Notes under the pieces: generated by a model
Seen by the model: only the letters and a program-made list of their open reading frames with translations
The model's database searches: none
What the model was told of the DNA's origin: nothing
In this document: piece by piece, positions 4,460-42,367 of the stretch
Layout of the letters: every line of letters begins with the position of its first letter
How positions within the stretch are numbered: the first letter of the stretch is position 1
Made by a program: the position numbers and the translations under genes
Origin: Blasia pusilla
Lineage: Eukaryota
Length of the DNA stretch: 64,000 nucleotides
Assembly (NCBI GenBank): GCA_050084515.1
Contig: CM114271.1
Span: 28,582,001 to 28,646,000 of the forward strand
Reading direction: 5' to 3'

Positions 4460-5780
4460 TTCTATATTGCAAGCTCCTTTCTCCTATTCGACTTCTAGGG
4501 TGAAAGATCGGGATCCAACCATATCCTCCGTCCTTTGAGAATGGCCTTGTTAGCCATGGCAGTATCACGTTGAGTTTGATCAAAAAACTTAACTAGAATA
4601 GCACAAGGCTGTGTTCCCGTTTTCCCAATGCATAAAGCATGAGCCAAGTCTGGGTTGTGAACATGAAGTGTATTGACCAAGAACTTGGTGACAACACTCT
4701 TCATCTCTTCGCACTTTATTTCCGGCAATCCGGAGATTCTCACATTCTTTCTACGTGCAATTTGGTTTTTTTGTTCTATCTCTTGCTCTTGATAGAAAGA
4801 GATACGAGCAACCTTTGTAGCTTCAGCATAAGATCTCATTCTCACTTCCAAAGTTTCAACAAACTCATGCAATCTTGAACTATAGGGAGTAGTCGCTAAT
4901 GATGATTTGGAAAGATCCAACATCACACTAAAGCTATCTTTCAACACCTTCTCCAAAACCTCTTGCGTTGCCTTCAACTCTCGGATTCGAATATATGCAA
5001 GGTTCAATTGAGAAGTACGTACCTTGAATTCTTGTCGAAGATCTTTCAATTCATGCAACACCACTTGCACTAGATTCAAGATTTCGTCTTGAGTAGTCAT
5101 CATGTAGTCGACTTCATTACATCCCAGATATTGCACGACCTCCAATCAAGTAGAGTAGAATTTTCAACACCACACAACTTCTGCTCTAGAAGGCGGTTGT
5201 GCTTGAAATTTCCATAGCTTGGGCGTCTCCTCATATTCCATGTTTTCTAAAAATATCAGCTTCATATGATACTCCACATGAAAGATATGGCCTCTGCAAG
5301 ATTCCAATCTGAAATCCTCAAATGTGGAAGAGCAAAAACTCAAATCTCTCACAACTTCATTTTTGTAATCTTTTTGGCCTTAAAACTTGTAGAGCTAGGG
5401 CGTCTCCTTACACTTAACCTCTCTTCCAAATCTCACCTTCATTTGATACTCCCCCTGAAAGATATGGCCTCCGCAAGATTCAGATCTGAAATATTCAAAT
5501 GTGGAAGAGCAGAAACTCAAATCTCTCACACCTTCGTTCGTCTCTATAACTCGGTTGGCCTTGAAATTTGCAGGGCTAAGGCACCTCTTCACATTCCTTG
5601 TGTTTTGAAAATCTTAGCTTCATGTAACATTCTACCTAAAAGCTATAGCCTCGGCAAGATTCAGATCTGAAATCCTCAAATGTGGAAGAGCAGGAACTCA
5701 AATCTCTCACAACATCGTCTCTATAGATGATTGACGAGAGGAAGCTATGGGCAACGTCTTTTCGTGAGCTGAAAAATCAG
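4460..5780 (-). mobile_element. LINE fragment: 5'UTR tandem monomers plus ORF1 (4495-5145)
   Basis: ORF1 coiled coil plus RRM-like motif KNVRISGLPE...AILVKF...RIWLDPDL, shared with copies at 18522-19310, 33201-33914 and 34801-35470; about 179-bp monomers at 5281, 5459 and 5639. Confidence 0.88.
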
Positions 5781-5789
5781 CCATCCACC

Positions 5790-6378
5790 ACATATGCTCT
5801 TCATCCTCAATACTTTCTCAACATAACCTATCACTTCTATCAATATTAAGCCATCGTCATTCCTCAATTCCTAGTCTATAAGACCCAATTCTATGTCGTG
5901 CGATAATATGATGTAAGAACGTGGAGATCCCTGCAAGTAGGTATCCTTGTTCATACTATAAAAGCATAGGATTAACATGAAGTTGATAATACCCCATTTT
6001 TATGCCCGGGCGGCTCCAAATAATGTTGAGGAATTGTTTCTGAAGATGCTCGCGGAGTGTCATTGGTTTCAGGTTCCAATCTTGTTTCGCCATATTCAAC
6101 TTTGAAGAGATAGTCACCACATCCGCAATCCACCTTATGGAATGTATGGCTCGTAAAGCTTGATGAGGGAGATGAGAAACATCAAGAGATCTCACCCTTG
6201 CGATATAAGTGATGGTCAAGTAGAAAGCTTCTTCTTCTAGAGGAAGACAACTTGTTTCCGCAAGAAGAATAGCATAAGGATTTTGGTTACACCCAATTCT
6301 TCTTGTAAAACGATCTTTTGCACCCTCTCCACGCGCTCCCAACCGGTCTTCTTACAGCTAGGGCCCCAAACTTGGGTC
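5790..6378 (-). mobile_element. 3' part of LINE ORF2, split from 15994-19520 by the Gypsy insertion
   Basis: Matches the ORF2 C-terminus of other copies (NQNPYAILLAETSCLPLE...). The sequence resumes at 15994 after a GGTC duplication. Confidence 0.9.
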
Positions 6379-6852
6379 TGTCACATCTGAGTAGCCGATA
6401 GGCCGAGATCTATCGTGGATAGGGCGTAGGAGCCAACGGACTATCTTGAGTGTAACTTTGTCCCACAGTGTCGGATGAGGTTGAGGATAGGTCCATTGTG
6501 TCAGAACGCGTCGTTTCGACGACTTTCTGTTGAGGTCTTTTACACCGGGTGACTTGTTGACCAGGTCACGCCCCTGGTAACCTGTCAGGTGCGCAGTTAC
6601 CAAGGAAGGGCTATTTTTGGGGTTTGAGCCTTTTGGCTCTTCCCAACCTATATAAGAGAGGAAGATGGCTTTCCTAAGCCATCTTTCTCATGTTGGGCCG
6701 TTGGAGCACCTCCCTTGTATGTGTGTGAGCTAGGACTAGGGTGCTAGCGTCCGGATTCCTTGATAGCACAAGGTGGACGAGGCTCGATATGCCGATGTAG
6801 ATTGAGGAGTGGAGTTTTAGGCCGGGTGTGCGTTTTGCTACTCTTTATTTTT
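6379..6852 (+). repeat. Terminal repeat A1 (promoter-bearing LTR part)
   Basis: Closely matches 15387-15855; contains TATATAAG at 6649-6656. Confidence 0.93.
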
Positions 6853-6866
6853 ACATGAGAAAGATG
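6853..6866 (+). promoter_or_regulatory. Putative self-priming primer-binding site
   Basis: ACATGAGAAAGATG is the exact reverse complement of CATCTTTCTCATGT at 6680-6693, which starts 31 nt after the start of the TATA box. There is no TGG-type tRNA PBS here. Confidence 0.75.
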
Positions 6867-8081
6867 TCGGGGTGGTGGGAATTGTTGTTTGCGGGTAGGC
6901 AAGCGTGTTGCCTCGGTTGGGGAGCCCCCGAGACGTGTGTGTGTCATTTTGTGTCATTTTTTTGTTCGAAGGCCGTGGGGAAGCGTATCCGTTTTTCGAT
7001 TTTCTTTGGTGCGATTGTTGGGGACGGCGGCGAGTGTAGCGTGTGGTGGGGCGTCGGGTGTACGCAAGTGAAGGCGTCGAAAAGAGAAGGAACGGACAAG
7101 TTGGGTCTTGCGCCGCCAGCCGGGGCTATCAAGTAAAGCGGCTAGAGTTAGGCACGGATGGCGACGGCGTGGCACGGATGGCGACGGCAGCGCGGCGGTG
7201 GGCGGGGCGCGTGCGCGATGAGCGGCCGGGCGGACCACGGCGCGCGCAGGCCTTCCTCCCCGCGCATTTAGGGCCCAAAGGGCGATAGGTCGTGGCCCAA
7301 GTTCTTCCCCCTCTTTCCGGCGTGGGTAGCACCGACAAGCGGCGGTTGGGCGATCAGTAGCGAACGTGGTAGGACGGACGAGGTCGGTCCGGCGAACGCG
7401 GTGCGCATGAGCAACGTGAGGGCAGGGAGGATGTCGACGTGCTGAGTGATCGACAAGTTGGGCAGCAGGCGTGACATGTTGTTTTGAGGCGCGCATAGGG
7501 CGTTGCGAGAGTTTACGCTGGAGGGGCAGTGTGCATGATGCCGACGGGTTGTCCGCATCTGTTGACGGGAGGATCGACGTGTTGGTCGAGGGGAGTGTTA
7601 TGTGGCGGAGATTGTCATATCATGTGGAGGAGTGCATATTGACGGTGCAGCAGGTTGGAGGGCGTGATCAGGTTACCCATTCGAGTCCCTTTTCCCGCAC
7701 TTATCGTGTGTGATTGAGAGTGTTGGGTATCGGGTATTAGCTGGTGCTAGATGGGTGCAGTGATGGTGACGAGTGTAGATTCTTTTCATGTGTAGCATGT
7801 TGGTGGATATACGGCGGTTGCCGAGTAGGGGTCGCGTGTATGACCCGAGAGAGTGTCGCTAGGTTAGGTGAGTCAGTTGGGAGGCTCATGGTGAGGCCGA
7901 GTGTTGAGCGTGCGTGAGGCCGGGTGTGTCATCACGGGATTGATGTTCGCATAGGTGAGCTAGTGAGGCGTGTGGGAGACTCTCGGTGAGTCTGAGTGCA
8001 TGAGCGGGTGAGACAGGGTTTGTCATCACGGCGTTCTTCCAGGGTTCGGAAGAACGGGGTAGTGCGAGTTGTGGTAGTGGT

Positions 8082-10500
8082 GTGACACGGAGTGGAGTGA
8101 GATATCGAGGGGTTACCAGTGAGGAGCTACCTCGACATCCATCCGTGACTGGATCGTCATCATTAGACACTGGGTCTGGTGACGAGATTGCAGACAGAGA
8201 CAGTAGTACTTGGCAGGAGATGGACGACATGGGCCATCGGGGCATGCGTCGTTTCTCGGGTGCAGTGGGCACCATCCACTTAGATGATTTCATCCAGGAG
8301 TTCGACACATGGTGCGACTTCCAGGAGATACGGACCCCCACACGGTTCAACCCTTTCATGGCATGGAAGGGGTTGTTCCAACACTTGGAGGGTCCTCCGA
8401 TGGATGACTACATGGAGTTTCGATCACTATATTCAATAGAGATCGATGCCTGGAGGATGTATTGGGCTCCAAGGTATGTGTCCACTAGTGGTCGCGAGGC
8501 ATATGATGGGATTGTGAGAGGAGAGAGACCCACACCATCAGCCCGGAGACTAGATGGAGAGGAGGACAAAGTGACACAAAGCGATGTGGCGAGACCTCTC
8601 GATGGTAGAGGGCCACCAGCCAGCCCCACAAAGTGGAGTTCTTCCGACGGTTGGGGAAGAGCTACAGGCGCATGCGCACCGACATGGTGAAGAGTCTACA
8701 GGATTTTTAGCGACGATCGGGTGAGAGTCTGAGAGAGGCATTCACACGCATGAGGAGGCTGATCATTGCTACGTTTGGAGGATCGAGTGGTGTCCGGCAC
8801 CCAAAGATTGGTACTGGGTTCGGGACCGAGAACTACGGAGGAGAGTCCGAGATGCGGTCTTTGATTCACACAACGGCCCACATTGAAGGTGGTCTTTGAG
8901 TTGTCTCGAGCGTATTGAGCTCAACATAAGTGAGGAGCAGGTAGTGACCGCTGGATTTTCTCAAGAGTCGACGGGTCCACAAGCGGCGGTGACCCCACCG
9001 GTGCCATAGCGGGCACCAGTACCACGGGAGCGGGCCAGTGTGCCTAGAGAGCGGGGCGATGGTACCGTGAGCCTATGAGGCAACGACCGCATCTACATAT
9101 GTTGCCCCAGGACCGATGTGGTCTTGTTGGGCGTGTGGAGGGGCCCATAGGCGGAGAGAGCGCCACAAGCATGGGAGAGGACCACAGCGCCTCGATTGCA
9201 CAGAGCCAGGAGAGGATGGCCCCACCACACACACAGTGTGACCATTGCCCAGATATGGTCACACTAGGGATAGATGTTTTGACCTTCGCCGAGGGCCTGG
9301 GGGCGGTCGTCCTGGAGGAGGTCGGGGAGTTCTTCTGGGCGTGGTGGTAGAGGACCACCACCGGCCAGAGGAGATGGAGCAGAGCACACAGAGCCGGCGC
9401 TTCTCGCATCGATCGGTTGAGCGGAGAGGATTGCCGCCATGACGATGATGCGGCTTAGGGAAGGCACGGAGTGCGAGCAACTAGTGTGACTCAGTCTCTA
9501 CCTCTTACCACGACCCGGTGAGGATCTCTCCAATATGGGATTCATGTGTAGTGCAGCCCAGGTTGAGGCAAAATGCGATGTGGTGACTCGGGGTGTCTGC
9601 CGAGAGGCACCGAGCCATCGAGAGGTGGAGTTGAGATTGACCCACCGAGGGGACCGATGGGCGGCAGCCGGGTTCCACATTGTTCACATTGTCGAGGCAC
9701 TACACACACCATCGATGGTGCCTCGGCGACCAACGGTGCCTACGTTCAGCACCCACGTCGACGTCACGAGGAGTTGGAGTGACAACTCCTATGCCGGCTC
9801 GAGTGGAGTCAGTGTCGACTATAGTGTTGGAGGTGGCCACTAGAGTGAGCCAGACTCCGTTATTTTCCGCCATAGAGTTGGCGACGTTGGGAGTTGGACC
9901 AGCTGAGGTGTTCCGGTTGGCCGCCACGTTGTGTGAGCGTGGAGAGATGACTCCTTCTTGTTCAGAGGTAGTTGAGGAGGTGGTGGACTTGCCCTCAGAG
10001 CCGGTGCTCGGGACGTTCCCCACAGAGTCATGGCATGCGGCGGCGGGCGGTTGGTAGATATGCCACTCGACCGGCCATAGAGCGGCGATGGTGACACTGA
10101 GTAGTGATTTGGATAACCGAAGTGGAGTATTTCGCTTGGTTAGTCCGACGGGACGGTATACCACCAGCAGTAGCGTCCTACTTGATTCGGGGCGCAACCC
10201 TTGATGTTAGGGAAGCGGCGTGTTTAGCGTTAGGGTTACGGAAGGCCGACATTGAGCCTTGTCCCTTCCGATCTGAGACCTTGATTGGGGCGTATCACCC
10301 ACTCGATATATGACTCGATAGGAGATTGTTGTCGAGTCGGCCGAGCATGTGACGGATAGTGCTATGGTACGACCGCGCGATTACGACTCGGTGAGTAAAT
10401 GCGATGTGTTGGTGGGGAATGCGAGTGTTATATCCCCTAGGATTCATCCTTGACACGGGAGGAGACCGTTGCTTATCGGCCAGGATGGCGGTCGGTGACG
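8082..10500 (+). pseudogene. gag and aspartic protease region (frameshifted)
   Basis: gag-like RRFSGAVGTIHLDDFIQEFDTWCD; Zn-knuckle remnant CDHC...HT.DRCFDL at ~9235-9290; protease motif LLDSGAQ at ~10178-10200. Confidence 0.75.
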
Positions 10501-10889
10501 TTCGGATGAGTCGATTACCCGTGCGCTTTTGCGGGGCGAGATGGTCGATCACGAGGCGAGTCTGCGACCACGTTGGCGGCTTTCACGGTAGTGTTAGTTG
10601 GCCAGGAGAGTTGTTAGAGGGGAACGACATGCGGAGGATGTCCCGAAAGCGGATAGTCCCACGGAGAGACAGGCCATGGCGGGTGTCTCTTCCCATGTTA
10701 GCAATGCCTCTTCACCATTATGGGGTACAACTCGAGAGCTGAGAGGAGTGCCGCGACCTCGTGAGGCAAAGCGGCGTGGAGTCATGTTTTTATCCCAGCA
10801 GCGTGAGAGTCACGTGGCGTCGGGCTCTTGGAGTGGAGACGATGACCCCACTAGATACCACACTGTTGTGTGGCGGTGCCTGAAGGAGG

Positions 10890-11830
10890 GTGTTAGGGTG
10901 TTAGATCTCTTTGGAGGGATTAGCACCGGATTGGCCGCAGATTGCAAAGCGGGCATACGGGTGCACCAGTACCTTTATGTGGAGAGAGATGAGACTGGCG
11001 AGTATCATTACGCCACGTGGCGAGATTGGTCGAGGTATTACGAGTTGTTGTCGGTATCTGCGATGACGGGGATACAAAGATACGCTACCCGCCGACATAT
11101 CGTTGGTGGGGCGCAGGATCTCGATAGAGTTGGCACCATTCATTTGGTGATTTGGATGGCCATGTCGGGTCATTCATCGGTGGCCGAGGATTTGGATTGC
11201 GGGGGAGGTCGGGGATGTTTTGGGAGATGCTGCGAGTAGTACGACACTTGCAGCAGAGTCAGATATGTTCTATAGCGTATATTTTGGAGAACGTGCCGTT
11301 GTTGGGAGATACTCATGCACGTGTGATGACGAGTGTACATCAGGTGAGGTCCTGGTTGGGACCGGCTGTGTTGTTAGATGCAGCGAGAGTTGGGTCACGT
11401 GCCCATCGTCCATGACTATGGTGGACGAACCTGATTCCATCAGAGGTACTGAGTCGAGCCTACAATGGAGTCCGGAGAGCACCACATCTCACGGTGGATG
11501 CTATTTTGGACTCAGGGCGTCGATCTCAAGTGGTGACACGCGATGATAGACCACCATTGGCCACGGCCAATAGGGTGGGGGAGTTGAGGGCAGCCTTACC
11601 TACGTTGGTGAGCTTCCAAGCATCCCATGCCTTTCGTCAGGGAGGGCCAGGTATGATTTGGGATGAGGTGACCAGAGTATTGGAGGAGCCTACAGCGAGA
11701 TGAGAGCGTGGAGCGCCATGGGGTTCACTACCGGTACTACTGGCGGTGCCGAGGGGATGGCGAGGCATCACGGAGACAGTGTTGGGGAGGCGGCGATGGA
11801 CCTCAAGCTGTCTCTCATATGGATAGTCAC
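10890..11830 (+). pseudogene. DNMT3-like C5 cytosine DNA methyltransferase domain inside the retrotransposon pol (frameshifted)
   Basis: Motif I VLDLFGGI (10898); motif IV GWPC(Q)GHS (11154-11176, across indels); RSGMFWEMLRV; motif VI YILENVP (~11278); motif VIII AHRP*LWWTNL (11401); motif IX/X-like ERAMGF..G.T...RRQ..G.AMD (~11700-11810). Confidence 0.88.
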
Positions 11831-12229
11831 CTAGGTATGGCGAGCGAGACGGATACGAGTGTCATCCATACCGTCACGTCCCAGTTGGACCCCGCCTCTG
11901 TGGTCTATCTGAGGCATTGGTCAAGGGGCGAGACGAGGAGAGATAGGCATCCATGGACTTCTGGGACGTCGTTCGAGCGAGAGAGAGTGCGAAGGCGGCT
12001 AGAGTAGCACATGTTCATTTTGCGAATGTGGGAGCATGGTGTAGGAGGTCATAGTGGAGTGGTACATTGCTATGGAGGTGGCTAGGGTTGCTACATAGCA
12101 ACCAAAGCCGGAGGTTGCGTCCTCTCCGAGTGAGGTCAGAATGGAGACTTGGGAGCCTGTGATAGGTCTCAAGTTGATAGGAGGAGAGCGACGGCAAGTT
12201 CATAGGTTTCTGCGAGGGAATGTCACTTG

Positions 12230-15175
12230 TTTTGCCTTCAGTATGAGAGACTTGGGTTGAAGGGTCGGGATACGGATTGAGTTGGCTAGTGATACGCCAA
12301 TCTTTCGTCGACCCTACAGGTATTCTCGATATGGAGCGAGCCTTGATTGAGCAGAGTCAAGACTTGTGGAGTTATCACATGGGGAGTATGCATCCGCCAT
12401 TCATGTCATGCGGCGAAGAAGGATATGTATGGCAATTGGACGGATAGGCAGATGTGTGGAGATTATCGTTCTATCAACCGACAGACGAGGTCAGATCAGT
12501 ATGCCATGCCTACTCTTGAGGAGATCTTTGATGCGGTAGGGCATGCAAAGATCTTGAAGACGTTAGATCTCGTCTTTGGCTATCATCGGCCTTCCTATCA
12601 GTTGGAGGACAGGAGAAGACAACATTCTGGGGATAGATCGGTTCGGGAGAGATTGCTTGTATCGATGGCGGTTCTTACCATTTGGGTTGAAGAATGCGCT
12701 CGGAGTTTCGAGAGTGATGGATAGGATTCTGGGTGGCTTGGATTTTGTACGATGTTACATAGATAATATTCTTATCTTGATTCCACGGTTGAGGAGCATG
12801 AGCGACACTTGGAGGAGGTGTTTGGCGATTGCGATTACATGGACTGAAGTTACATCCGGCAAGTGCAGATTCTTTCAGAGCAGATTGAGTACTTGGGACA
12901 CACCATATACCCGAGTGGGTTAGGCGTTCAGCAGACGAAGGTAGAGGCTATTGCGCAGATTCCACGCCCTACAGATGTGAGTCGAGTCCGAACATTTCTT
13001 GGACTGGCGAACTTCTATCGACGGTATGTCTAGGGTTTTAGTGCGATCGCAAAGTCTTTGACCTTGTTGACGAGACTTGATCAGGTGTGGTTGTGGGGAG
13101 ATGATCAGGAGCGAGCATTTCAGAGCTCAGGACGAGTTGACGTCCTCACCCATTTTCTGAGAGACCGGTTAGGGGTCGCCCATTCCAGTTACATACGGAT
13201 TGGAGCATGTTGGGTCTAGGAGGAGTGCTTACTCAGAGGGATGACGAGGAGAGGGAGTTCGTTGTGGCTTACGCGAGTTGATTGAACAACATTGCAGAGG
13301 CAAAGTACAGCTCCTATGAGGGAGAGTGCTTGGCTGCAGTGTGGGCCGTGGCACATTTTAGGTGCTATTTATTCGGCAACCCTTTCACACTTATCATTGA
13401 TCATCAGCCGTTGAGATGGTTGATGGAGTCCGACAAGCTTACGGGAAAGCTTGCCAGGTGGGCTCTATTACTACAGGAGTATGAGTTTGAGGTGGTTCAT
13501 AGGCCAGGTTGGCTGAACCAGGATGCGGATGGGTTGAGTCGTAACCCATGTCCGAGTCAGAGAGACGTCACGGGAGCTCGATGGCACGGAGAGAGTGATG
13601 AGGAGATGGTGCCCGATTGGCATGCATCTGCCTATCTTTGTTGGTTGACTATGGTAGGTCAGCCACAGGTGATGACTCAGTGGTGGGGTTGGATGATGAG
13701 TCTTTGGATCCGGAGGTCAGTGAGGAGGTGACATGTGGTCGTGATATCCATGACGACGTGGAGGTTGTGGAGTTCTTGCGCACTGGCGTCATAGCGAGCA
13801 CAGTGAGTACTAGGGAGCGGGATCGGATCCTACAGAGAGCCAAGAGGTTCAGGTGGGAGGGGACTCACATTTTGCGGGTATGGGGAGATGGTAGGATACG
13901 AGTGGTACCTCATCCTTCCCAGCAAGCACGTGTAGTGCGACATGCCCATGAGGAGTTGGGACATTTCGAGTAAAGCGTTACGACTTACTCTAGGTTCGAT
14001 ATTGGTGGCGCGGCATGCATCTTTGGGTGTTGAGCGGTTGTGGCGGATGTATGGTATGTGACAGAGTGCGAGCATCCTTCAATGCTCCCACTCAGATTAC
14101 ATCCTTTGCCGATTATGGGTTTAGGTTATCGGTGGAGTTTAGACTTTTTGCGGGACCTTTGCCATTGACATGGCGTCATCATAGGTGCGTGTTGGTCATG
14201 GTGGAGCATTTCTCCAAGTGGATAGAGTTGGTGGCACTACCGGACAAAGCGGCGAGGGAACTTATGCATTTCTAGATCGTGTGCTTAGTCACTTTGGTGC
14301 ACCGGCGGAGGTGTTGAGTGACCAGGGTACCGAGTTTAGGGGAGAGTTTCAGGCCTTGTGTGATCAGGCGCTGATAGATCACCGCACCACGTCCAGGGAT
14401 CATCCTGAGGCGGATAGATTGGCGGAGAGAGTGGTACAGACGGTGAAGAGAGGATTGCGCAAGTATGGCTTGCAGCGAGGACAGTTGAGGGAGTGGGACC
14501 TACAGTTGCCATGGTTGGCTATGGGTTATCGCTTTAGTCGGCAGGCATCCTTGGCGTCATTTTCACCATACTTTTTGCTCTTTGAGAGAGAGCCAGATTT
14601 ACCTGCAGCGATTCGACGTGACATGGCGGAGGTGTTAGATCTTGATGATCCAGATGTGTGGGTGCAAGCATGTTCTCAGAGGGCAGAAGTTTTTCGTAGA
14701 GTTATGCCAATGGCCTTTGAGAACTTAGCTATTGCCCAGCATAGAGATACATTGAGGTACGCGACCATTCGTGGAGGAGGTTATCGTCTAGGGATTAGGA
14801 GGTTTCATCCTAGAGATAACGTGTATTTACAGCCGGCGGCACCCACGACGCTAGATGTCACTGCAGGGCGCACGATCCTACGTGTGCGCGAGGTATTACC
14901 GACCGGAGTCCTCATGTTGGAGGGACGAGATGGTATGGTTTGGAAGGATCATGTGCGCAATTGTGCGCCATGTCATCTTCCGAACGTAGATGGGATGGTG
15001 GATCCAAGCTTGGCGGTGGTACTGCAAGCTTGAGGTGTATGTTGTGCGGATCACGAGAGTGCGGCCACCATGTTGGTATGTGATGGTTGTTCTCGAGGGT
15101 GGCATATGTCATGTCTGACCCCCCCCTCTTGATGTGGTTCCCACGGGACGATGGATGTGTCCGAGATGTGTATAG
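12230..15175 (+). pseudogene. RT, RNase H, integrase and PHD finger of the DNMT-bearing element (frameshifted)
   Basis: RT MCGDYRSINRQT...TLDL..GY and YIDNILI; RNase H LHTDWS...YSSYEGECLAAVWAV; integrase HAHEELGHF...CMVC and SDQGTEF...AERVVQTVK; PHD C4HC3 at 15036-15175. Confidence 0.93.
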
Positions 15176-15246
15176 GGTAGTAGGTCATGTCAGAGAGATG
15201 TGATATTTTCTATCTGGAGTTAGGAGGATCCAAGCGCCTAGAAGCG

Positions 15247-15993
15247 GTTGTGTGATCTCCATGTATATGTATGAGTTTATTTTTGTACATGTGTGGATCG
15301 ACCCGTGTGTGGGGAAGATCGGTGTTATGTGGTGTAGATGTGACGAGCGATGTATGTTGTGTAGCGATATGTATGCGCACGACAGTTGTCACATCTGAGT
15401 AGCCGATAGGCCGAGATCTATCGTGGATAGGGCGAGGAGCCGGACTATCTTGAGTGTAACTTTGTCCCCAAAGGTGTCGGATGAGGTTGAGGATAGGTCC
15501 ATTGTGTCGAACGTCATTTTTACGACTTTCATGTTTAGGTCTTTACAGTAGGGTGACTTGTCGACCAGGTCACACCCCAGTAACTGTCTTGAAAGTTACC
15601 AAGGGAAGGGCTATTTTTGGGGTTTGAGCCTTTTGGCTCTTCCCAACCTATATAAGAGAGGAAGATGGCTTTCCTAAGCCATCTTTCTCATGTTGGGTCG
15701 TTGGAGCACCTCCCTTGTATGTGTGTGAGCTAGGACTAGGGTGCTAGCGTCCGGATTCCTTGATAGCACAAGGTGGACGAGGCTCGATATGCCGATGTAG
15801 ATTGAGGAGTGGAGTTTTAGGCCGGGTGTGCCGTTTTTGCTACTCTTTATTTTTTGATGTGTGATCTCCATGTATATGTATGAGTTCATTTTTGTACATG
15901 TGTGGATCGACCCGTGTGTGGGGAAGATCGGTGTTGTGTGGTGTAGATGTGACGAGCGATGTATGTTGTGTAGCGATATGTATGCGCACGACA
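15247..15993 (+). repeat. 3' terminal repeat block B1-A2-B2
   Basis: B1 (15247-15384) and B2 (15856-15993) are near-identical 138-bp copies flanking A2; the B1/A2 junction is GACA-GT-TGTC. Confidence 0.93.
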
Positions 15994-18900
15994 GGTCCCA
16001 TGTAAGACCACCGACAACACTAAGCTCCTAAATAAGAACTTTCTAAGACCTAGGATACAAGATGAGCTCTTCTATACCGATTTAAAAATGAATATATAGC
16101 TTTGTAACGAGCTTATACTCTCTTTTGCACCCAAAGTGCCCAACTATAATCATGAGATAAATCAATGCGTAGATATTTATAACTCCTCATTTTTCTAATT
16201 GTTGAAATTTTTAAAAGAAGGAGAATTTGGATCTAGTATCCATTATAATGATTTTAGACTTCACCATATTAACCTCCATCTGATTTTGGGTACAAAAACT
16301 TGCCAAAGTGTCGAGGCGTTTTTTGAAACTAATACCATCACGTGCTAGTAATATGATATAAATAAATTTTTAATAAAAAAAGTCTCCAAGCTGGACATCT
16401 TCATTGTCACATTCTTCCAACCACTTTTCGATATCATATAGGAAAACTCCAAATAGAGTAGGGGAGAGAGGGCAACATTAAGTGACTCCGATAGTACTCA
16501 AGATCTCTTGAGTTTGTGAATCTTTGATCTTGGCTTGAATGGAATGGTACAACGTGACCACGGCAACTAGAAGATATTTTGGTACTCCAATGGCTCGCAA
16601 CCTATCCCATAAGAGCTCAGGAGATAACATATTAAAAGCTTTCTTGAAATCGATGAAACTGCAAAATAAAGCTTTTCCATTGCCCTTAGATTTCTCCCAT
16701 GAAACACGTAAGGCCAAGATATGGTCGATGGTGTTGTATGTTGTGCAAAAACCAACTTGGACTCTACTCTCTTTTGAAAAGACTCCGTCCATGCACTCAA
16801 TTTTGACTCCACCAATTTCCCAAACAGCTTGGCAAAGACACTACCCGCCATGATAGAGCGATAGTTTGTCACCAAATCCTTCCTTCCTGATTTGTGAATA
16901 GGAACAATCTCTTGTAGCGACCAAGTAGAAGGAAAACCATAGATAGCAGCATCACCCAATACTTTGGTGAGGATCGGCCCAATAGAATCTCCTTCCCACT
17001 TGAGAAGTTCAACCGAATGACCATCCAAATCCTCATATATGCCATTTTCTAATTTTCTTAGTTGAGTCATCACGTATGCTTCAGAGAATAAGCCTGGTAT
17101 GCCATCACAATGGGACATAGATGTAGCATGGGGGAAGAAATACAACTTTTCAGCAAAAGATATCAAAGACTAGGGATCAAAATAGGTTTTGAAGACCGTA
17201 CTACTAACCGTCTCCAAAATGATTTGGGGTCGTTATGGAGTTCTCTTGTTCGAAATTCCTGCTTCAGCTACAAGAAATCTTGTTTCTTAGATTTCACCAA
17301 GTGTTTGTAAAGGCTCGTCATGATAAGCCGATTTTGGAGATCCAAAGATTTTCCCATTAATCATAACCTTGCTTGCTTGCATTTAGAGTCAAACCACCCA
17401 TTACAAGGCAGCCTCCTAGCACTTCTACCCCTGTGACGGGAAAAGAACTTGGATGTAGTGTTCTTGAGCAATTTGGTTGGTTGCAAACTTGTTGTGTATT
17501 GATGAGGGCTCCATACAATGTGAGTCTAGAGTTGTTGTAAATGTAGCCTGTAAAGATTTTTTTTACGAGGATCTAATCAAAACTTGGGAGAAGCTAAAAC
17601 GGATTGACATGTTGAGAGAGGAACTTTCTTCGACAATGAGAAAGTATACAAAAGAGGCTCATGATCAGATTCAGATAGAGCTTCTAAAATTTCAAACGTA
17701 GAGATATGAGAGCTATTAGTGGGTGAGGAGAGAAGATAGTCGATGAAGCTAGCACCGGTAGAGGAGAAACATGTATTGGCCTTTTGACCCTTTGGATCCC
17801 ACAGGCTTGATCTAAAGATGCTCGCGGAGTGCCATTTACCATTTATTGGAGTGAGAGTTGGGAAAATGAGAGGTTCCATTAAGAACTTTCAAATTATAAG
17901 TGGCTCCAAAAGTTAAAAAATGCTCTATCAAAGGATTTGTAGAAAGATCTGAAGAGATTCTAGACCACAAACCATCCTCTGGTTCTTCAAGAAGAGGAGA
18001 AGTCAAGGACTCACTAAAATGGGTAAATTGAGCAGTACATGTGCGAGCATTGAAATCCCCAACTAGAAAGACTTCACCTTTGCTTTGATATTTGAGAACA
18101 TCCTCAATAAGTCGATGAAATGGTTGACTCTAACTGCAAGTACACGTTGAGTAGATAAGCATGGACAATGGTCCAAAATAACAAATTGTCAAATAACAAT
18201 AAGATCCCCCTACCAAACCAAGATGTAGCCAATGATATTGGCCCCCAATGTCTTGATCTTCTAGATGTATGAGATGTAGAAATGAAGACCTTATGAAAGT
18301 AGCAATACCGCCATAACCCCTGTTTCATGTTGCCTTCTTTTGTTCCATGTTGATCCCACCAAAGTAAACCTTTGCATCTTTACAATAGTATTGCTCTCAT
18401 GTTCCCAAGTCTCCACAATATTGATGATGTCCGCCATCTTCCAAATTGGTAGAACACTCACATACTTTGTTGTTGAAAGACGGCGTATATTCCACATGAA
18501 CACTCTCAACTTCTTGGATTCCTAGGTTGATAAGTCTCTCTTTCTATTGGTAGCAATTGCTCGACCATCGTGTATAAAAGTTATAAAACTTGCTTCTTGC
18601 GCCTCTTTGACCTTTGCAAGCTCCTTTCTGCTAGTTTCAACTTGTAAAAGTGTAAGATCATGATCCAACCATACCCTCTGTCCTTTGAGAATGGCCTTGT
18701 TATCCATGGTAGTATCACATTGAGTTTGATCAAAAAACTTAACTAGAATAGCACGAGGTTGTGTTCCCTTTTTCCTCATGCGAAAAGCTTGAGCCAATTC
18801 CAGGTTGTGAACATGAAGTGTATCAATCAAGAACTTTGTGACAACACTCTTCACCTCTTCACTCTCTATTTCTGGAAATCTTGAGATTTCACATTCTTTC

Positions 18901-19529: not shown

Positions 19530-21725
19530 GCTTATCATGACGTGCCTTTACAAACACTTGGTGAAATCCAAGAAACAAGTTTTCTTGCAGCGGAAGCAAG
19601 AGTCCTTAACAAGGGAACTCCATGACGACCCCAAATCATTCTAGAGGCGGTTAATAGTACGGTCTTCAAAACCTACTCTTGATTCAAAGTCTTTGATATC
19701 TTTTGCTGAAAAGCTCGACTTCTTTCCCCATGCTACTACATCTATGTCGCGTTGTGGAGGCATACCAGGCTTATTCTCTCAAGCAGAGGTGATGACTCAA
19801 CTACGAAGATTAGCAAATGGAAAATGTGAGGATCTAGATGGTCTTTCTATTGAACTTCTCAAGTGGGGAGAAGATTCTATCGGACCGATCCTCACCAAAG
19901 TATTGGGTGATGCTGCTATCTATGGTTTTCCTTCTACTTGATCGCTACGAGAGATTTTCCTATTCACAAATCAAGAAGGAAGGAATTTGTGACAAACTAT
20001 CGTACTATCATGGTAGATAGTATTTTTGCCAAGTTGTTTGGGAAATTGATGGAGTCAAAGTTGAGCGGATGGACAGAGTCTTTCCAAAAGAGAGCACGGG
20101 TCCAAGTTGGTTTTCGTCCAACATACAATACCATCGACCATATCTTGGTCTGACGTGTTTTATGGGAGAAATCTAAGGGCAATGGGACAGCTTAACTTTG
20201 CGATTTCATCAATTTCAAGAAAGCTTTTGATATCGTAAGCTCTTATGGGATAGGCTGCAAGCCATTGGAGTACCACCAAATCTCCTAGCAGCCGTGGCCA
20301 CATTGTACCATTCCGTTCGGGCCAAGATCAAAGCTTCACAAACTCAAGAGATCTTGAGTACTATCGGAATCATTCAAGGTTGCCCTCTCTCCCCTACTCT
20401 ATTTGGAGTTTTCATAGATGATATCGAAAAGTGGTTGGAGGAATGTGATAGTGAGGGTATCACGCTTGGGGGCTTTATCATCAAAGCTCTACTGTATGCA
20501 GATGATATCATATTACTAGCACGTGATGGCGTTAATTTACAAAAACTCCTCGACACTTTGGCAAGTTTTTGTACCCATAATCAGATGGAGGTTAATATGG
20601 AGAAGTCTAAAGTCATTATAGTGGATACTATATCCAAGTTCTCGTTCTTTTATAAAGGTCTACAATTAAAACAAGTGAAGAGTTACAAATATCTAGGCAT
20701 TGATTTCTCTCATGACTATAGTTGGACACGTTGCGTGCAAAAGAGAGTAGAAGCTGGTTACAAAGCTCTATATTCATTTTTAAATTGGTGTAGAAGAGCT
20801 CATCTTGTGTCCTTGGGTCTTAGGAAGTTCTTATTTAGGAGCTTAGTGTTGCCCGTGGTCTTATATGGGATCTGAGTTTGGGGCCCTAGTTGTAAGAAGA
20901 CAAGTAGAGAGCGCATTGAGAGGTTGCAAAAGATCATTCTACAAGAAGAATTGGGTGTAAGAAACCAAACTCCTTATGCTTTTCTTCTTGCGGAAACAAG
21001 TTGTCTTCCTCTAGAGGTTGAATTCTCTACTTGACCATCACTTATATTGCACGCGTGAGATCTCTTGATGTTTCTCGTCTCCCTCATCAAGTTTTGCGAA
21101 CCACACGTTCCATAGGGTGGATTTTGGATGTGGTAACTTGGTCTTCAAAGTGGAATGTGGCGGAATGAGATTGGGACTTGAAACCGATGGCACTTCGCGA
21201 TCATCTACAAAAGCAATTTCTCAACATTATTTGGAGCAACGTGGGCACAAAAATGGAGTATTATCAACTTCATGTTAATCCTATTGTGAACAAGGATAGC
21301 TTCTTGCGAGGATCTCCACATTCTTATGTCATATTATTGCACGACATAGAAGTGGGTCTCATAGGCAAGGAATTGAGGAACACCGATGGTTTAATATTGA
21401 TAGAAGTGAATAAATTTGTAGGTTATGTGACGGAGAAAATATCGAGGATGAAGAGCATGTGTTTGTTATATGCCCAAGATATGAAGAGATTAGACTATCT
21501 CATAAAATAGATGTGCAGAATTTCTATTCTTTACTACAACTAGTGCCTTATGATTTAGGTTGTTTTAGTAGGGATGTCATTATTCATTGCTCAAATGCTC
21601 TTGGAAATAGCTAGGAGAAGGTCTCTAGGATCTTTTTTCGGGTTAGTGAATGAATAACTTGTAATGTGTTTTTTAGCCTTTGGATCCTTTGGGTTGCACA
21701 GGCTTGATCTATTTACCATTTACCA
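19530..21725 (+). mobile_element. 5'-truncated RTEX-like LINE (RT, C-terminal Cys/His domain, 3' tail)
   Basis: QGCPLSPTLF, LLYADD and YKYLG in ORF 20294-20875; ends GGCTTGATCT-ATTTACC-ATTTACC. Confidence 0.92.
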
Positions 21726-22364: not shown

Positions 22365-25300
22365 AACAGGGCGTGCAGACCAACAAGTTAAAGAGTCTAC
22401 AGGATTTTCAATGAAGATCAGATGAGAGTCTAAGAGAGACGTTCATACGCATGCGGAGACTGATCATTGCAATATATGGGGTGACTAAGCTGCAGTCGGG
22501 ACCAGGAGCTATGGAGGAGAGTTTGGGATGTGATGTTGCTTCACACGCCAAAGCCCACATTAAAGATGGTCTTCGAGTTGTCAGAGCAGGTAGAGCTCAA
22601 TGTGAGTGATCGAGGAGCAGGTGATGACCACATAATTTTCATGGGATTTGACGGGTTTGCAAGTAGGAGTAGCCCCATAAGTGCTCCAGCATGCACCAGT
22701 ACAACGAGAGCGAGCCTGTGGGCCTAAAGAGTAGGGCGGGTATTGTAAGTCGCTCACACAACAGCCCGTGTCAACATATGTTACCTAGTAGGGACCAAGG
22801 TTGGCTTGTTGGACGTGTGGTGGGCCATATAGGCAGAGGAACCACCCACACCATGGTAGAGGGCCAAGGACACCTTCGATTGTTGAGGAGCCACCTCAGA
22901 TGGCCCCACCACAATTGTAGTGTGATCATTGTTTCCGATGTGGTCACACTAGGGATAGGTATTTTGATCTTCGTCGGGAGATACGTCTAGAGGCAGGCAG
23001 AGGACCTAAGGGTGAGAGAGTTGGTGGAGATTGAGTACTGGATGATCATGGTGGTAGAGTTCCATCACCAATCACAAGAGATGGAGGGAGTGCACCCGAT
23101 GCAACATTCCTTTCTCGCGTCGATTAGTTGGAGTAGAGGATTGCTACCATGATGGTCATGCAGCTAGGGACAGGCACAAAGCTGAGAGTAGCTAGTGTGG
23201 CTCCAACCCCATGTCTTACCATGATACGAGTGAGGATTCTTGTGGTATGGGATTTATGTGTAGTGCAGCTCAGGTTGAGGCTGTTGCGGAGGTCACTCGG
23301 GGTGCTGCGAGAGTAACCGCGCCATCGAGAGGTGGGATTGAGATTAACCGAGAGAAAGGGACCCATGGGCGGCAAGCCAGGGTTCCTAGTCGTTCACGTT
23401 GTTGGAGGCACTTCATATACTGTCAATTGGCGCCTCGACGACCAGTAGTACCAACGGGTGGGACAGGTATGTCGACGTTATGAGGAGTTGGAGAGACGAC
23501 TCCTATGTCAGCTTGGATGGAGCCTTTGTTGACCACATTGTTGGAGGTGGCCACTAGGATGAACCAACCTCCGTTGTTTTCTATCATAGAGTTGGCGGCA
23601 AAGGGAGTCAGACTAGCGGAGGCGTTCTGGCTGGCCACCATGTTGTGTGAGCGTGGAGAGGTGACTCCCTCTCATTCAGAGATATTTGAGGAGATGGTGG
23701 ATGTATCCTCGGATCAGGTGCTCAAGACGTCCCCCACTCAATCATGACATGTTGCGATGATAAAGTTGGTAGATATGCCAACTAGGCCAGCGATAGAGCG
23801 AGCCATGATCACAGCAAGTGTGGTATTGTTGGATAACCGAGCAAGAGTGCTTTGCTTGGTTAGTCCCATAGGTACAGTGTACCACCTACTGCGCGTACTA
23901 CTTGATTCGAGAGCGCAACTCTCGAGGTTACGGAAGGTGGTGTATTTAGCGTTGGGGTTACGGAAAGGCGACATCCAATAATGTCCCTTTCAGATATAGA
24001 CCTCTATTAGGGGCGTATCACCCACGCGGTTCATGACTCGATAGGAGTTGGTGGTTAGACTCGAGCCATAGCATGAGACAGATAGTGTGATGGTACACAC
24101 TCGGGCGATTACGACACCGACAAAGTCATATGATGTGTTGCTTGGGAGTACGGTGTTGTATTCCCTTGGTTTTATCTTGGATTTTTGGGAGGAGACAATT
24201 TCTTATCGGCCATGGTAGCAATCAGGTGATGGATGACTCGATGAGCCATCTACCGATGAAATTTGCAGGGGGTAGTGATGGTCGACCACGTGAGGATACA
24301 GTTACCACATCGGCAACATTCACAAGTGGTGTTAGTTGATCAAGAGGGTTTGAGGAGAGGAGTACACATATGGAGGACATTCCCATAGCGGATAGTCCCA
24401 CAGAGAGACATGCCAGTGTGGGTGTCTCTTCCCATGGTGCGGAGCTTCTTTATTGTTGTTAGGGATGAGCGTTGAGTTGCGTGGAGTCCAAACGAGCTCG
24501 TGAGGCAGTCGTGGAGTCATGCCTGTTTCTTGGAGCAGATAGAGTCAGGTGAAGGTCGTACTCTTGGGATGGAGACTTCATATCTTCGGGTACCATATGT
24601 GGTAGCGTTTGGAGCAGGGTAGGAGAGTGTTAGATCTCTTACGAGGGATCAACACGACAGGTACTTGCAGTGTTGCAATGTTGGAGGGACAACAACACCG
24701 ATGGTGCTAGATGTGTATAGGATAGTAGATCATGTAGGGCATATATGCGTGTGTTGTCTGGAGTTAGGGGCACCCAAATGCCAGCTAGGGGGGCGGTTGT
24801 GGGATCTTGATGTATATGAGTGAGTTAGTTTGGTTTATGGATAGATCGACCCTTGTGTTGGGAAGATTGGTATTGTGTGGTGTGTAGATGTGGGTTGTGT
24901 AGCGATGTGTTTGGGCACGACAATTGTCACATCTTAGTAGGTGATAGGTAGAGATCTATCGCAGTGACGACATAGAGAGCTGGCGGACTGTCTTGAGTGT
25001 AACTTCGTTCCGAGGTGTTGGATGAGGTTGAGGATAGGTCCATTGTGTTAGGAACGTTGTTTCTGAGAACTTTTTTATTTTGGTCGTTGTCAACCGGATG
25101 ACTTGTTGAGCAGGTCATCCACCCCCTAGTAACCTGTGCACATAGGTTACCACGAGGATTGTTAGTTTTAGGGAAAGAGCCTTTTGGTTCTTCCTACATC
25201 TATATAAGGGAGAGAGATGGCTTTCCCAAACCATCTTTCTTATGTTGGGCCGTTGGAGCACCTCTCTTGCTCGTGTGTGAGATAGGACCAAGGTGCTAGC

Positions 25301-25541
25301 GTCCAGACTCCCTCATCGCGGAGGGTGGATGAGGCTCGATATGTCGATGTCGATTGAACAGTGGAGTTTTAGGTCGGGTGTGCCATTTTCACTCTTATTT
25401 TTGTTGTGGGATCTCGATGTATATGTGTGAGTTTGTTTGGTTTATGGATGGATCAACCAGTGTGATGGGAAGATCGGTGTTGTGTGGTGTGTAGATGTGA
25501 CCAACGATGTGGGTTGTGTAGCAATGTATATGCGCAAGACA
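22365..25541 (+). mobile_element. Second, diverged, 5'-truncated and internally deleted copy of the DNMT-Gypsy family
   Basis: Colinear with 8665-10930 (gag, protease VLLDSRAQ, MTase motif I start RVLDL at ~24625). It then jumps to a PPT-like AGGGGGGCG and B1 24796-24922, A2 24925-25402, B2 25403-25541. Confidence 0.9.
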
Positions 25542-42365: not shown

Positions 42366-42367
42366 AT

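What the first reader, a model, noticed from the sequence alone, without database searches (positions are those of the whole stretch)
10890..11830. DNMT3-like cytosine methyltransferase embedded between protease and RT
Seen: C5-MTase motifs I, IV, VI, VIII and IX/X appear in canonical order (VLDLFGGI, GWPC.GHS, ILENV, AHRP.LWWTNL, ERAMGF). They are intron-free and on the pol strand, and motif I sits at the same position in copy 2 (~24625). Established: VLSLFDGI, GSPC, ENV and AHRARYFWGNL are DNMT3 signatures, and DNMT-carrying retrotransposons are reported from dinoflagellates and charophyte algae. Inference: this trait persists in, or re-entered, a land-plant lineage, and the domain would be released from Pol by the protease.
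Basis: partly seen in the sequence, partly recalled or inferred. Interest (0 to 1): 0.9.

Follow-up and report, generated by a model that had tools for sequence, protein, structure and literature searches.

The report
Dead DNMT3 domain in liverwort retrotransposon
The flagged stretch is the broken remnant of a DNMT3-type DNA cytosine methyltransferase carried inside a gypsy-type jumping gene of a liverwort; the element type is known from a green alga, so this is a land-plant member of a known kind and this copy is dead.

Summary
The motifs are real, but they lie in three reading frames. The pieces alone give no PF00145 hit and no match to a solved methyltransferase. A 192-aa piece finds 44 proteins (best E 4.6e-66, 60-67% identity to Marchantia and Calypogeia) that do carry PF00145. 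A family profile matches DNMT3A best (E 3e-18; DRM 1.5e-8). A confident model (pLDDT 92.3) has only DNMT3A/B/C among the listed Foldseek hits down to rank 47.

The domain (about 10863-11983) sits between protease and RT of a 9.6-kb Ty3/gypsy-type element (6379-15993). The element has TG..CA ends, a 4-bp duplication (GGTC) and DIRS-like split repeats (B...A-B-A). This matches the description of KnitGypsy-Dnmt3 of Klebsormidium (PMC5890265).

This copy is a pseudogene: about 12 frameshifts and 2-3 stops in the domain, and 31 plus 16 over 9740-13605. A neighbouring host exon is 94% identical to Marchantia paleacea, so the host is a liverwort.

Family reads cover the DNMT part about as deeply as gag. 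Whether the family persisted vertically or re-entered is unresolved. Verdict: new member of a known kind, moderate interest.

The parts
6375..6378 (.). Left copy of the 4-bp target-site duplication GGTC
   Evidence: Three empty paralogous sites in the window read ...CTTGGGTCCCAT..., with one GGTC.
6379..6852 (+). 5' terminal repeat B1 (starts TGTCAC)
   Evidence: Matches 15387-15854 at 92.3% over 481 columns; the part 6604-6836 is 99% identical to 15604-15836.
8220..9300 (+). gag remnant (the CCHC knuckle region of relatives maps to about 9122-9286)
   Evidence: tblastn and frameshift-aware alignment to Marchantia P0009 from residue 1. Over 8220-10891 there are 24 frameshifts and 4 stops, with 389/852 identity.
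10106..10451 (+). Aspartic protease remnant
   Evidence: Maps to the PR domain of P0013 (125-243) and P0009 (612-730); 4 frameshifts and 1 stop.
10863..11983 (+). DNMT3-type C5-cytosine methyltransferase domain, pseudogenised (the finding)
   Evidence: Maps to the MT domain of P0013 (376-708) with 12 frameshifts and 3 stops. Against P0009: 12 frameshifts, stops TGA 11413 and TAG 11832, 229/400 identity.
12150..13075 (+). Reverse transcriptase remnant (Pfam-core part 12404-12934)
   Evidence: tblastn to P0013 and P0044; 5 frameshifts and 2 stops in the core.
13076..13491 (+). RNase H remnant
   Evidence: PF17917 at E 1.1e-20 on ORF 13282-13731; domain mapping.
13914..14964 (+). DDE integrase remnant (zinc part 13914-14074, core 14106-14433)
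   Evidence: PF00665 at E 9.8e-6 and 26.2 bits, below the 32.6 cut-off, on ORF 14185-15033. Alignment to P0069 from residue 1602 to 2238 covers 13013-14964 with 8 frameshifts, 3 stops and 295/625 identity.
15249..15384 (+). Repeat A1 (ends ...GACA), followed by GT at 15385-15386
   Evidence: 98.5% identical to 15858-15994; junction read.
15387..15854 (+). Repeat B2
   Evidence: Matches B1.
15858..15993 (+). Repeat A2, the 3' end of the element (...GCACGACA)
15994..15997 (.). Right copy of the target-site duplication GGTC
22366..25541 (+). Copy 2: 5'-truncated, internally deleted relative (about 70-79% identity) that keeps gag-PR, a motif I vestige and the A-B-A 3' end
   Evidence: blastn 8664-10926 = 22366-24655 and 15154-15993 = 24700-25541; translation.

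Best explanation
Window 10863-11983 is the decayed DNMT3-type C5-cytosine methyltransferase domain of one old copy of a Gypsy-DNMT3 retrotransposon. The element is of Ty3/gypsy type, 6379-15993, in the order gag-PR-DNMT-RT-RNaseH-DDE integrase. It has DIRS-like split direct repeats (B...A-B-A), TG..CA ends and a 4-bp target duplication. It is inserted in another repeat of a Marchantiopsida liverwort genome. This copy encodes nothing.

In intact relatives the domain is in frame within Pol and keeps the catalytic residues. From this I infer that Pol brings a de novo cytosine methyltransferase to the particle in which cDNA is made. There it would most likely methylate the element's own cDNA or new insertions, as proposed for SymbioDIRS-Dnmt3 and KnitGypsy-Dnmt3.

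Shown here: identity, position, decay, family spread and host. Inferred: enzymatic activity, its substrate, and whether the domain is cut free by the protease.
For: Homology: P0001 finds 44 proteins, best E 4.6e-66, at 60-67% identity to Marchantia polymorpha and Calypogeia fissa proteins bearing PF00145. PF00145 passes its cut-off in 7 of the 8 relatives scanned; P0008 and P0031 gave no PF00145 row, so the count is 6 of 8.

DNMT3 type: profile A1 against PDB sequences gives DNMT3A 3e-18, DNMT3B 2e-16, DNMT3C 4e-16, tobacco DRM 1.5e-8, M.HhaI 5e-6 and DRM2 2e-4. DNMT1 is not listed among the 56 matches. The AlphaFold model on a 54-sequence alignment has pLDDT 92.3. All rows printed by Foldseek against PDB, ranks 1-47, are DNMT3A/B/C, best E 8.5e-20 with TM 0.82 on the target.

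Position: the order PR-MT-RT-RH-IN is seen in relatives and in the window by tblastn and frameshift-aware alignment.

Conserved catalytic motifs: in 67 family domains, the W, P and C of GWPC, the E and N of ENV, the arginines of the AHR.R motif, ERE and the G..D of LG.AMD are at 95% or more.

Element borders: TSD GGTC against three empty sites. The B...A-B-A repeats are seen also in copy 2 and in 4 of 12 long metagenome loci (L073, L068, L077, L047). They are described for KnitGypsy-Dnmt3 in the Fig. 4c legend of PMC5890265.

Decay. Ten of the 12 indel rows printed by read laying lie within 9 bases of a frameshift I called, with most family reads carrying the other state.

Family content: DNA depth over the DNMT part is 1040-1150, against 1310-1360 for gag and 1700-1980 for RT.

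Host: the Sec7 exon at 55190-55876 is 94% identical to Marchantia paleacea, 87-88% to Riccia, 84% to Calypogeia and 77% to a lycophyte.
Against: The window's own fragments give no Pfam hit and no methyltransferase among solved structures. The assignment therefore rests on relatives.

No K. nitens sequence was retrieved, so kinship with KnitGypsy-Dnmt3 rests on shared architecture, not on a tree.

No reference DNMT3, DRM or DNMT1 sequences could be put in a tree, so 'DNMT3-type' rests on profile and fold ranking.

Evidence for present-day function is weak. Only 3 of 57 metagenome loci examined have the DNMT match fully open. Pairwise dN/dS among those three is 0.62-0.83. RNA depth on the DNMT part is 3-26, against 45-128 on RT-integrase.

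PMC5890265 reports that KnitGypsy-Dnmt3 gave no detectable de novo methylation in yeast, which the authors call inconclusive (passage read).
Confidence: 0.9

Rival explanations
1. The family reached bryophytes, or moved among them, by horizontal transfer rather than by unbroken vertical descent from a streptophyte-alga ancestor.
For: In the careful DNMT tree (47 rows), the two Sphagnum rows sit inside a 99/95 clade of 13 rows with the Marchantia rows. That clade excludes Calypogeia and the window's copy, although both come from liverworts. Branches inside the bryophyte clade are short.
Against: The same pattern arises from several old element lineages sorted among hosts. The window row is a pseudogene with an end branch of 0.4, and the Sphagnum rows are partial, so placements are shaky. 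The Closterium (Zygnematophyceae) rows fall outside the bryophyte-containing clade (95/95, 30 rows), as vertical descent predicts. The tree contains no K. nitens row and no host DNMT3 row.
Confidence: 0.3
2. The methyltransferase-like stretch is a one-off nested insertion or captured host DNMT3 pseudogene in this copy, not a part of the element's Pol.
For: The stretch is out of frame with its neighbours, and the copy is full of indels.
Against: PR and the DNMT domain lie on one protein, with the DNMT domain downstream of PR, in every fetched protein that shows both (table); where RT is also present it follows the DNMT domain. That includes complete PR-MT-RT-RH-IN polyproteins (P0069, P0076). 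Copy 2 has the motif I vestige at the same place. Read depth is continuous across PR, DNMT and RT. No repeats or duplication bound the segment.
Confidence: 0.03
3. The motif run is a chance resemblance and there is no methyltransferase homology.
For: No PF00145 hit and no PDB methyltransferase for the window's fragments.
Against: E 4.6e-66 to proteins carrying PF00145. The window copy falls in a 100/99-supported clade of 18 bryophyte and unnamed rows.
Confidence: 0.01
4. This very copy still yields an active enzyme, for example through programmed frameshifting or assembly errors that mimic frameshifts.
For: Motifs I, VI and VIII are still readable. Sense-strand RNA reads lie on 10836-11109 at depth 15-26.
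Against: There are about 12 frameshifts plus 2-3 stops in roughly 1.1 kb, and decay is similar across gag, PR, RT and integrase. At the printed indel sites, 116 to 1746 Illumina reads share the window's state, so those states are not assembly errors. RNA reads at 80% likeness come mostly from other copies: 36/3050, 33/3144 and 34/3254 laid reads are 99% or more alike.
Confidence: 0.01

Closest known systems
KnitGypsy-Dnmt3 of Klebsormidium nitens (de Mendoza et al. 2018, PMC5890265; abstract, several passages and the Fig. 4 legend read, figure itself not held)
   Same: A Dnmt3-related, non-rearranged DNMT inside the Pol ORF of an element with Gypsy domain composition. The repeat structure is 'the same as that of a DIRS retrotransposon' (A-coding-B-A-B), which is what I find here and in 4 of 12 related loci.
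   Different: The host is a liverwort (land plant), not a charophyte alga. This copy is a pseudogene. I could not see where the DNMT sits in the K. nitens Pol, and I retrieved no K. nitens sequence, so common descent is inferred, not shown.
SymbioDIRS-Dnmt3 of Symbiodinium (same paper)
   Same: A Dnmt3-type domain within Pol and A-coding-B-A-B repeats. It methylates CG de novo in yeast, according to the paper.
   Different: Those elements use a tyrosine recombinase in a separate ORF. Here the integrase is a DDE (rve) type, and the insertion has TG..CA ends and a 4-bp duplication.
Cellular DNMT3A/3B/3C catalytic domain
   Same: Best sequence-profile match (E 3e-18) and best fold match (E 8.5e-20, TM 0.82-0.84 on the target). 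Motif order is I-IV-VI-VIII-IX-X, not permuted.
   Different: No PWWP or ADD was detected in the relatives scanned. The domain is part of a retrotransposon polyprotein, with about 20-24% sequence identity in the fold alignments.
Plant DRM methyltransferases
   Same: Distant relatives of DNMT3 within plants.
   Different: DRMs have rearranged motifs and match the family profile far less well (1.5e-8 and 2e-4).
EpiLTRs of Cymbomonas and Euglena (bioRxiv 10.64898/2026.05.21.726589; passages read)
   Same: LTR elements that carry a cytosine DNMT in pol.
   Different: There the DNMT is appended at the 3' end of pol, groups next to DNMT4, and is combined with a Dam-like adenine methylase and a chromodomain. 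None of these is seen here.

Membership tests
C5 cytosine DNA methyltransferase (Pfam PF00145) | Score above the Pfam gathering cut-off | tested here: inconclusive
   The window's fragments give no hit. Natural relatives 60-67% identical to the window piece pass (34.9-35.6 bits against 22 in P0013, P0009 and P0014; 54.1 bits in P0069). The region that Pfam matches in relatives (motifs IV-VI) is cut by frameshifts in the window.
C5 cytosine DNA methyltransferase (Pfam PF00145) | Motifs I (FGG), IV (PC), VI (ENV), VIII (R.R), IX and X in that order | tested here: met
   Present in order in the window, though across three frames and with a stop inside motif VIII. At least one residue of each motif is conserved at 95% or more across 67 family domains.
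DNMT3 family | Closer to DNMT3 than to other C5-methyltransferase families by profile and by fold | tested here: met
   DNMT3A/B/C score 3e-18 to 4e-16, against DRM 1.5e-8, HhaI 5e-6 and DNMT2 about 1e-4 to 7e-4. All printed Foldseek rows (ranks 1-47) are DNMT3A/B/C.
DNMT3 family | Placement inside the DNMT3 clade in a tree with reference DNMT1, 2, 3, 4, 5, 6 and DRM | not tested
PMC5890265 reports such a placement for the K. nitens elements.
Ty3/gypsy LTR retrotransposon | Pol order PR-RT-RNase H-DDE integrase, TG..CA ends and a short target duplication | tested here: met
   order; TGTC...GACA ends, GGTC duplication against three empty sites.
Ty3/gypsy LTR retrotransposon | Two identical-in-structure LTRs, one at each end | tested here: not met
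   The 5' end has B only. The 3' end has A-B-A, and the sequence after B1 is unrelated to A. The same arrangement is seen in copy 2 and in loci L073, L068, L077 and L047.
Gypsy-DNMT3 (KnitGypsy-Dnmt3 kind) | Gypsy domains plus a Dnmt3-type domain in Pol plus DIRS-like repeats | tested here: met
   See the rows above and the Fig. 4c legend of PMC5890265.
Gypsy-DNMT3 (KnitGypsy-Dnmt3 kind) | Sequence kinship (RT and DNMT) with the K. nitens elements | not tested
   No protein named Klebsormidium appeared among the 44 and 71 hits listed. The ten clusters looked up had no organism names.
DIRS order (tyrosine-recombinase retrotransposons) | Tyrosine recombinase and no target duplication | tested here: not met
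   The integrase is rve/DDE type and a 4-bp duplication is present. No Phage_integrase hit appeared among the element ORFs scanned or in the relatives.

The most novel reading that the evidence does not exclude
Gypsy-DNMT3 elements form one old, green-lineage-wide clade that persisted into land plants. It runs from a chlorophyte (Haematococcus) through Zygnematophyceae to mosses and liverworts, and the DNMT3 module has moved within Pol (RH-MT-IN-PHD against PR-MT-RT). In this liverwort, intact and expressed members would still exist among a family that takes about 0.8% of sampled reads. Their enzyme would methylate their own cDNA or insertions. A transposon family would then be a second, host-independent source of de novo cytosine methylation in a land plant.
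Probability: 0.2. Interest if true: 0.8.

Novelty: new member of a known kind. Interest (0 to 1): 0.45.

Why it matters
Retrotransposons that carry their own DNMT3 have been described in print, as far as my searches reach, only for dinoflagellates and the charophyte Klebsormidium. These searches covered full text of open PubMed Central papers and bioRxiv. Supplements were closed and subscription papers are not held.

Here the same peculiar element type (gypsy genes, DIRS-like repeats, DNMT3 in Pol) is shown in a liverwort. Relatives are annotated only as hypothetical proteins in Marchantia, Calypogeia and Sphagnum.

That extends the kind into land plants, including the model plant Marchantia, where methylome, knock-out and expression tests are routine. 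The open question of what a transposon gains from its own methyltransferase thus becomes testable in a tractable plant.

The particular copy flagged is dead, so it has no functional weight of its own.

Tried and rejected
- Pfam on ten single-frame ORFs and on two longer pieces gave no PF00145 hit.
- phmmer of P0001 against PDB sequences gave only a spurious ankyrin row at E 0.35.
- The genome search 'own' reported that no genome is held for this window, so no genome-wide census was possible.
- The first AlphaFold run, on the 9-sequence alignment, was unusable (pLDDT 45.8). It was replaced by the 54-sequence run.
- The ESM Atlas look-up only repeated 'PF00145'.
- The listing of cluster members on ten proteins gave no organism names.
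- The Rfam scan of the window found 0 families.
- The look-up of sequencing runs listed no RNA holder among indexed runs. RNA raw-read runs of the same species label were laid instead.
- dN/dS among the only three loci with an open DNMT frame was 0.62-0.83, which gives no support for recent purifying selection.
- I looked for Klebsormidium relatives and host DNMT3 sequences to root the tree and found none among the listed hits.
- CpG observed/expected is 0.90 in the element against 0.48-0.61 in the flanks. I draw no conclusion on methylation from that.
- The search of earlier findings 'near' returned nothing.
- I considered a true DIRS element and rejected it: DDE integrase and a target duplication are present.

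Full report
**What is in the sequence.**
- VLDLFGGI: 10898-10921.
- GWPC: 11154-11165.
- GHS: 11168-11176.
- ILENV: 11281-11295.
- AHRP: 11401-11412, then a TGA stop, then LWWTNL at 11416-11433.
- AMGF: 11715-11726.

A contiguous 'ERAMGF' does not exist; 'ER' lies just upstream in another frame. Scanned alone, the pieces give nothing. Ten ORFs gave 0 PF00145 hits, and so did two longer pieces. phmmer found no methyltransferase among solved structures.

**Why it is nevertheless a real methyltransferase remnant.** The one-frame piece 11128-11703, with stops read as X (P0001), finds 44 proteins at E<=0.01, the best at 4.6e-66. Identity is 60-67% to proteins of Marchantia polymorpha and Calypogeia fissa, and lower to Sphagnum and Closterium. 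Most of these carry PF00145.

Of eight relatives scanned, six pass the PF00145 cut-off, for example 35 bits against 22. The part Pfam matches in them (motifs IV to VI) is exactly where the window copy changes frame twice. That explains the blank for the window itself.

A profile of nine domain-sized relatives (A1) was run against PDB sequences:

| Match | E-value |
|---|---|
| DNMT3A | 3e-18 |
| DNMT3B | 2e-16 |
| DNMT3C | 4e-16 |
| tobacco DRM | 1.5e-8 |
| M.HhaI | 5e-6 |
| DRM2 | 2e-4 |

DNMT1 does not appear among the 56 rows. A first structure model on nine sequences was poor (pLDDT 45.8). A second, on 54 sequences (A2), reached pLDDT 92.3. Every row Foldseek printed for it against PDB (ranks 1-47) is DNMT3A, 3B or 3C, best E 8.5e-20 with TM 0.82-0.84 on the target. 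In 67 family domains the catalytic positions are kept at 95% or more: the P-C of motif IV, E-N of ENV, the arginines of motif VIII, ERE of motif IX and G..D of motif X.

**The element around it.** blastn of the region against the window shows an insertion at 6379-15993 into another repeat. The flanks of that repeat are contiguous in three other copies. Those empty sites read ...CTTGGGTCCCAT..., so the insertion made a 4-bp duplication GGTC, and its ends are TGTC...GACA.

The coding order, from tblastn and a frameshift-aware alignment to natural relatives, is:

| Part | Coordinates |
|---|---|
| gag | from 8220 |
| protease | 10106-10451 |
| DNMT | 10863-11983 |
| RT | 12150-13075 |
| RNase H | 13076-13491 |
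| DDE integrase | 13914-14964 |

The terminal repeats are not ordinary LTRs. The left end is B (6379-6852). The right end is A (15249-15384), then GT, then B (15387-15854), then A (15858-15993). Copy 2 in the window keeps the same A-B-A end at about 77% identity. Among 12 long metagenome loci of the family, 4 show B...A-B-A (L073, L068, L077, L047) and 2 more show the A..A pair.

The Fig. 4c legend of de Mendoza et al. 2018 (PMC5890265) says this of KnitGypsy-Dnmt3 of Klebsormidium: repeats as in DIRS, domains as in Gypsy. Unlike DIRS elements, this one has a DDE integrase and a target duplication.

**State of this copy.** Against Marchantia P0009 the DNMT part has 12 frameshifts and 2 stops, with 229 of 400 aligned codons identical. 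Against P0013 it has 12 frameshifts and 3 stops, and the stretch 9740-13605 has 31 frameshifts and 16 stops. gag-PR has 24 and 4, and RNase H-integrase has 8 and 3. The alignment penalties may over- or under-call a few of these.

The calls are backed by reads. Of the 12 indel rows that read laying printed, 10 lie within 9 bases of a frameshift I called. At those sites most family reads carry the other state (for example 745 of 958 at 10191), while 116 to 1746 reads share the window's state. The indels are therefore real, and partly shared by a subfamily. None of the 12 printed rows lies in the DNMT part, and 258 rows were not shown. I therefore cannot say how many copies in this genome have that part open.

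Copy 2 (22366-25541) is 5'-truncated. It keeps only a motif I vestige (RRVLDLLRGI) before a deletion that removes the rest of the DNMT, RT, RNase H and integrase.

**The family in this organism.** One DNA run and three RNA runs with the same coded species label were laid on 7000-15200 at 80% likeness. Of 12,434,590 DNA records read, 99,303 were laid (0.8%). Only 1,062 of these were 99% or more alike, and 55,596 were under 90%.

Depth, summed over both orientations:

| Region | DNA depth |
|---|---|
| gag | 1310-1360 |
| protease | 570-840 |
| DNMT (10836-11657) | 1040-1150 |
| 11658-11931 | 480 |
| RT | 1700-1980 |
| RNase H | 3025 |
| integrase | about 2400 |

So the DNMT part is not missing from most family members. 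The higher RT-integrase depth is expected from other gypsy families matching at 80%. RNA depth was 3-26 on the DNMT bins and 45-128 on RT-integrase. Nearly all RNA read pairs had the first mate on the minus strand, which in most stranded libraries means plus-strand RNA. This is observation only, since most laid RNA reads are under 90% alike.

**Host.** The window holds a host exon, the Sec7 domain of a BIG-type ARF-GEF, at 55190-55876 on the minus strand. It is 94% identical to Marchantia paleacea, 87-88% to two Riccia species, 84% to Calypogeia fissa and 77% to a lycophyte. I infer a complex thalloid liverwort (Marchantiopsida), hence a land plant.

**Spread and architecture of the family.** The exhaustive profile search finds 464 clusters (50% identity) at E<=1e-30, 2,059 at E<=1e-10 and 8,659 at E<=0.001. 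The last figure surely includes other C5-methylases.

Among the 97 fetched proteins mapped with domain profiles (Pfam checks), three orders occur:
- **PR-MT-RT-RH-IN.** Marchantia, Calypogeia, Sphagnum, Closterium and unnamed metagenome proteins, including the complete polyproteins P0069 and P0076.
- **RT-RH-MT-IN-PHD.** Haematococcus lacustris and many unnamed proteins.
- **MT-RT-RH-IN-PHD.** P0092 and P0098.

In the DNMT tree of 68 rows the PR-MT rows form one clade of 32 (SH-aLRT 99) that also contains P0092. This clade lies among the RH-MT-IN rows, though the root is only a midpoint. In the careful tree of 47 rows the window copy lies in a 100/99 clade of 18 bryophyte and unnamed rows. The Closterium rows fall outside the 95/95 clade of 30 that holds the bryophyte rows. 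Inside the bryophyte clade, however, the Sphagnum rows group with Marchantia (99/95, 13 rows) to the exclusion of Calypogeia and the window. This fits either several old lineages or transfer between hosts; I cannot tell which. The rows left out of these trees were proteins whose DNMT part was short or split, except the nine partial rows added by name.

**Function.** What the enzyme does for the element is not shown by anything here. Deep conservation of the catalytic residues argues that intact members make an active enzyme. Its place inside Pol argues that it travels with RT. PMC5890265 proposes methylation of the cDNA (passages read). That paper found de novo CG methylation in yeast for SymbioDIRS-Dnmt3 but none for KnitGypsy-Dnmt3, which the authors call inconclusive.

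Against recent selection in bryophyte copies: 3 of 57 loci have the domain open, and their pairwise dN/dS is 0.62-0.83. This is what dead copies drifting apart would give.

**Literature.** Seven full-text searches found no paper that reports DNMT-bearing gypsy elements in liverworts or mosses.
- The 2026 preprint 10.64898/2026.05.21.726589 speaks of 'streptophytes (Gypsy-DNMT3)' (passage).

Supplements were closed and could hold bryophyte entries.

**Verdict.** The interpretation as a DNMT3-like domain between PR and RT in a land plant holds. The copy is a fossil, and the kind is known from Klebsormidium. It is a new member of a known kind, of moderate interest mainly because Marchantia makes the question testable.

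Noticed in passing
window 6379-6852 and 15249-15993; L073 6000-6336, 14634-15203; L068 6117-6444, 14514-15082; L077 1676-2017, 10238-10805; L047 1768-2074, 10378-10971: Split direct repeats (B ... A-B-A) are combined with a DDE integrase, TG..CA ends and a 4-bp duplication. The internal A|B joint (GACA-GT-TGTC) looks like an end-to-end junction of the element's termini. How such an element is reverse-transcribed is unexplained.
   Followed up: partly
proteins P0031, P0036, P0060-P0068, P0070-P0075, P0077-P0086 and others: A second architecture, RT-RNaseH-DNMT-integrase-PHD finger, occurs in Haematococcus lacustris and many unnamed metagenome proteins. Two proteins (P0092, P0098) have DNMT-RT-RH-IN-PHD. 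The homologous DNMT3 module therefore sits at different places in Pol. I found no description of the PHD-bearing form in the papers read.
   Followed up: partly
DNMT tree: Sphagnum (moss) rows nest with the Marchantia rows, to the exclusion of Calypogeia and the window's liverwort copy. This means either several old lineages or transfer between bryophytes.
   Followed up: no
window 10191, 10214, 12823, 14145, 14251 and other sites (table 4): At sites where this copy has a frame-breaking indel, 116 to 1746 reads share its state. Already-broken copies therefore seem to have been multiplied, which suggests copying in trans by other elements.
   Followed up: no
window 7000-15200, RNA runs X19-X21: RNA depth on RT-integrase is 45-128, against 3-26 on the DNMT part, a far larger gap than in DNA (about twofold). 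The transcribed relatives may mostly be families or copies without a similar DNMT part.
   Followed up: no
window 55190-55876 (-): Host exon with a Sec7 domain (BIG-type ARF-GEF), 94% identical to Marchantia paleacea. It is the only clear host gene piece I saw in the window.
   Followed up: partly
window 42362-43654: Integrase fragment of a third, more distant relative (66-67% DNA identity to 13868-15180), without the upstream parts.
   Followed up: no
window 173-1000 (-), 20231-20875, 35466-36158, 40153-41241: Other retroelement remnants: a retroviral-type protease (RVP_2), two RVT_1 reverse transcriptases, and an endonuclease/exonuclease/phosphatase domain of LINE type. The Gypsy-DNMT3 copy is inserted into one member of a repeat family with at least five copies in the window.
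   Followed up: no
window 34127-34712, 5118-5725, 21949-22300: Short arrays of tandem repeats of about 177 bp, inside or beside the LINE-like repeats.
   Followed up: no
window 6379-15993 against flanks: The element has 54% G+C and CpG observed/expected 0.90. The flanking repeats have 39-43% G+C and 0.48-0.61, and copy 2 has 0.66.
   Followed up: no
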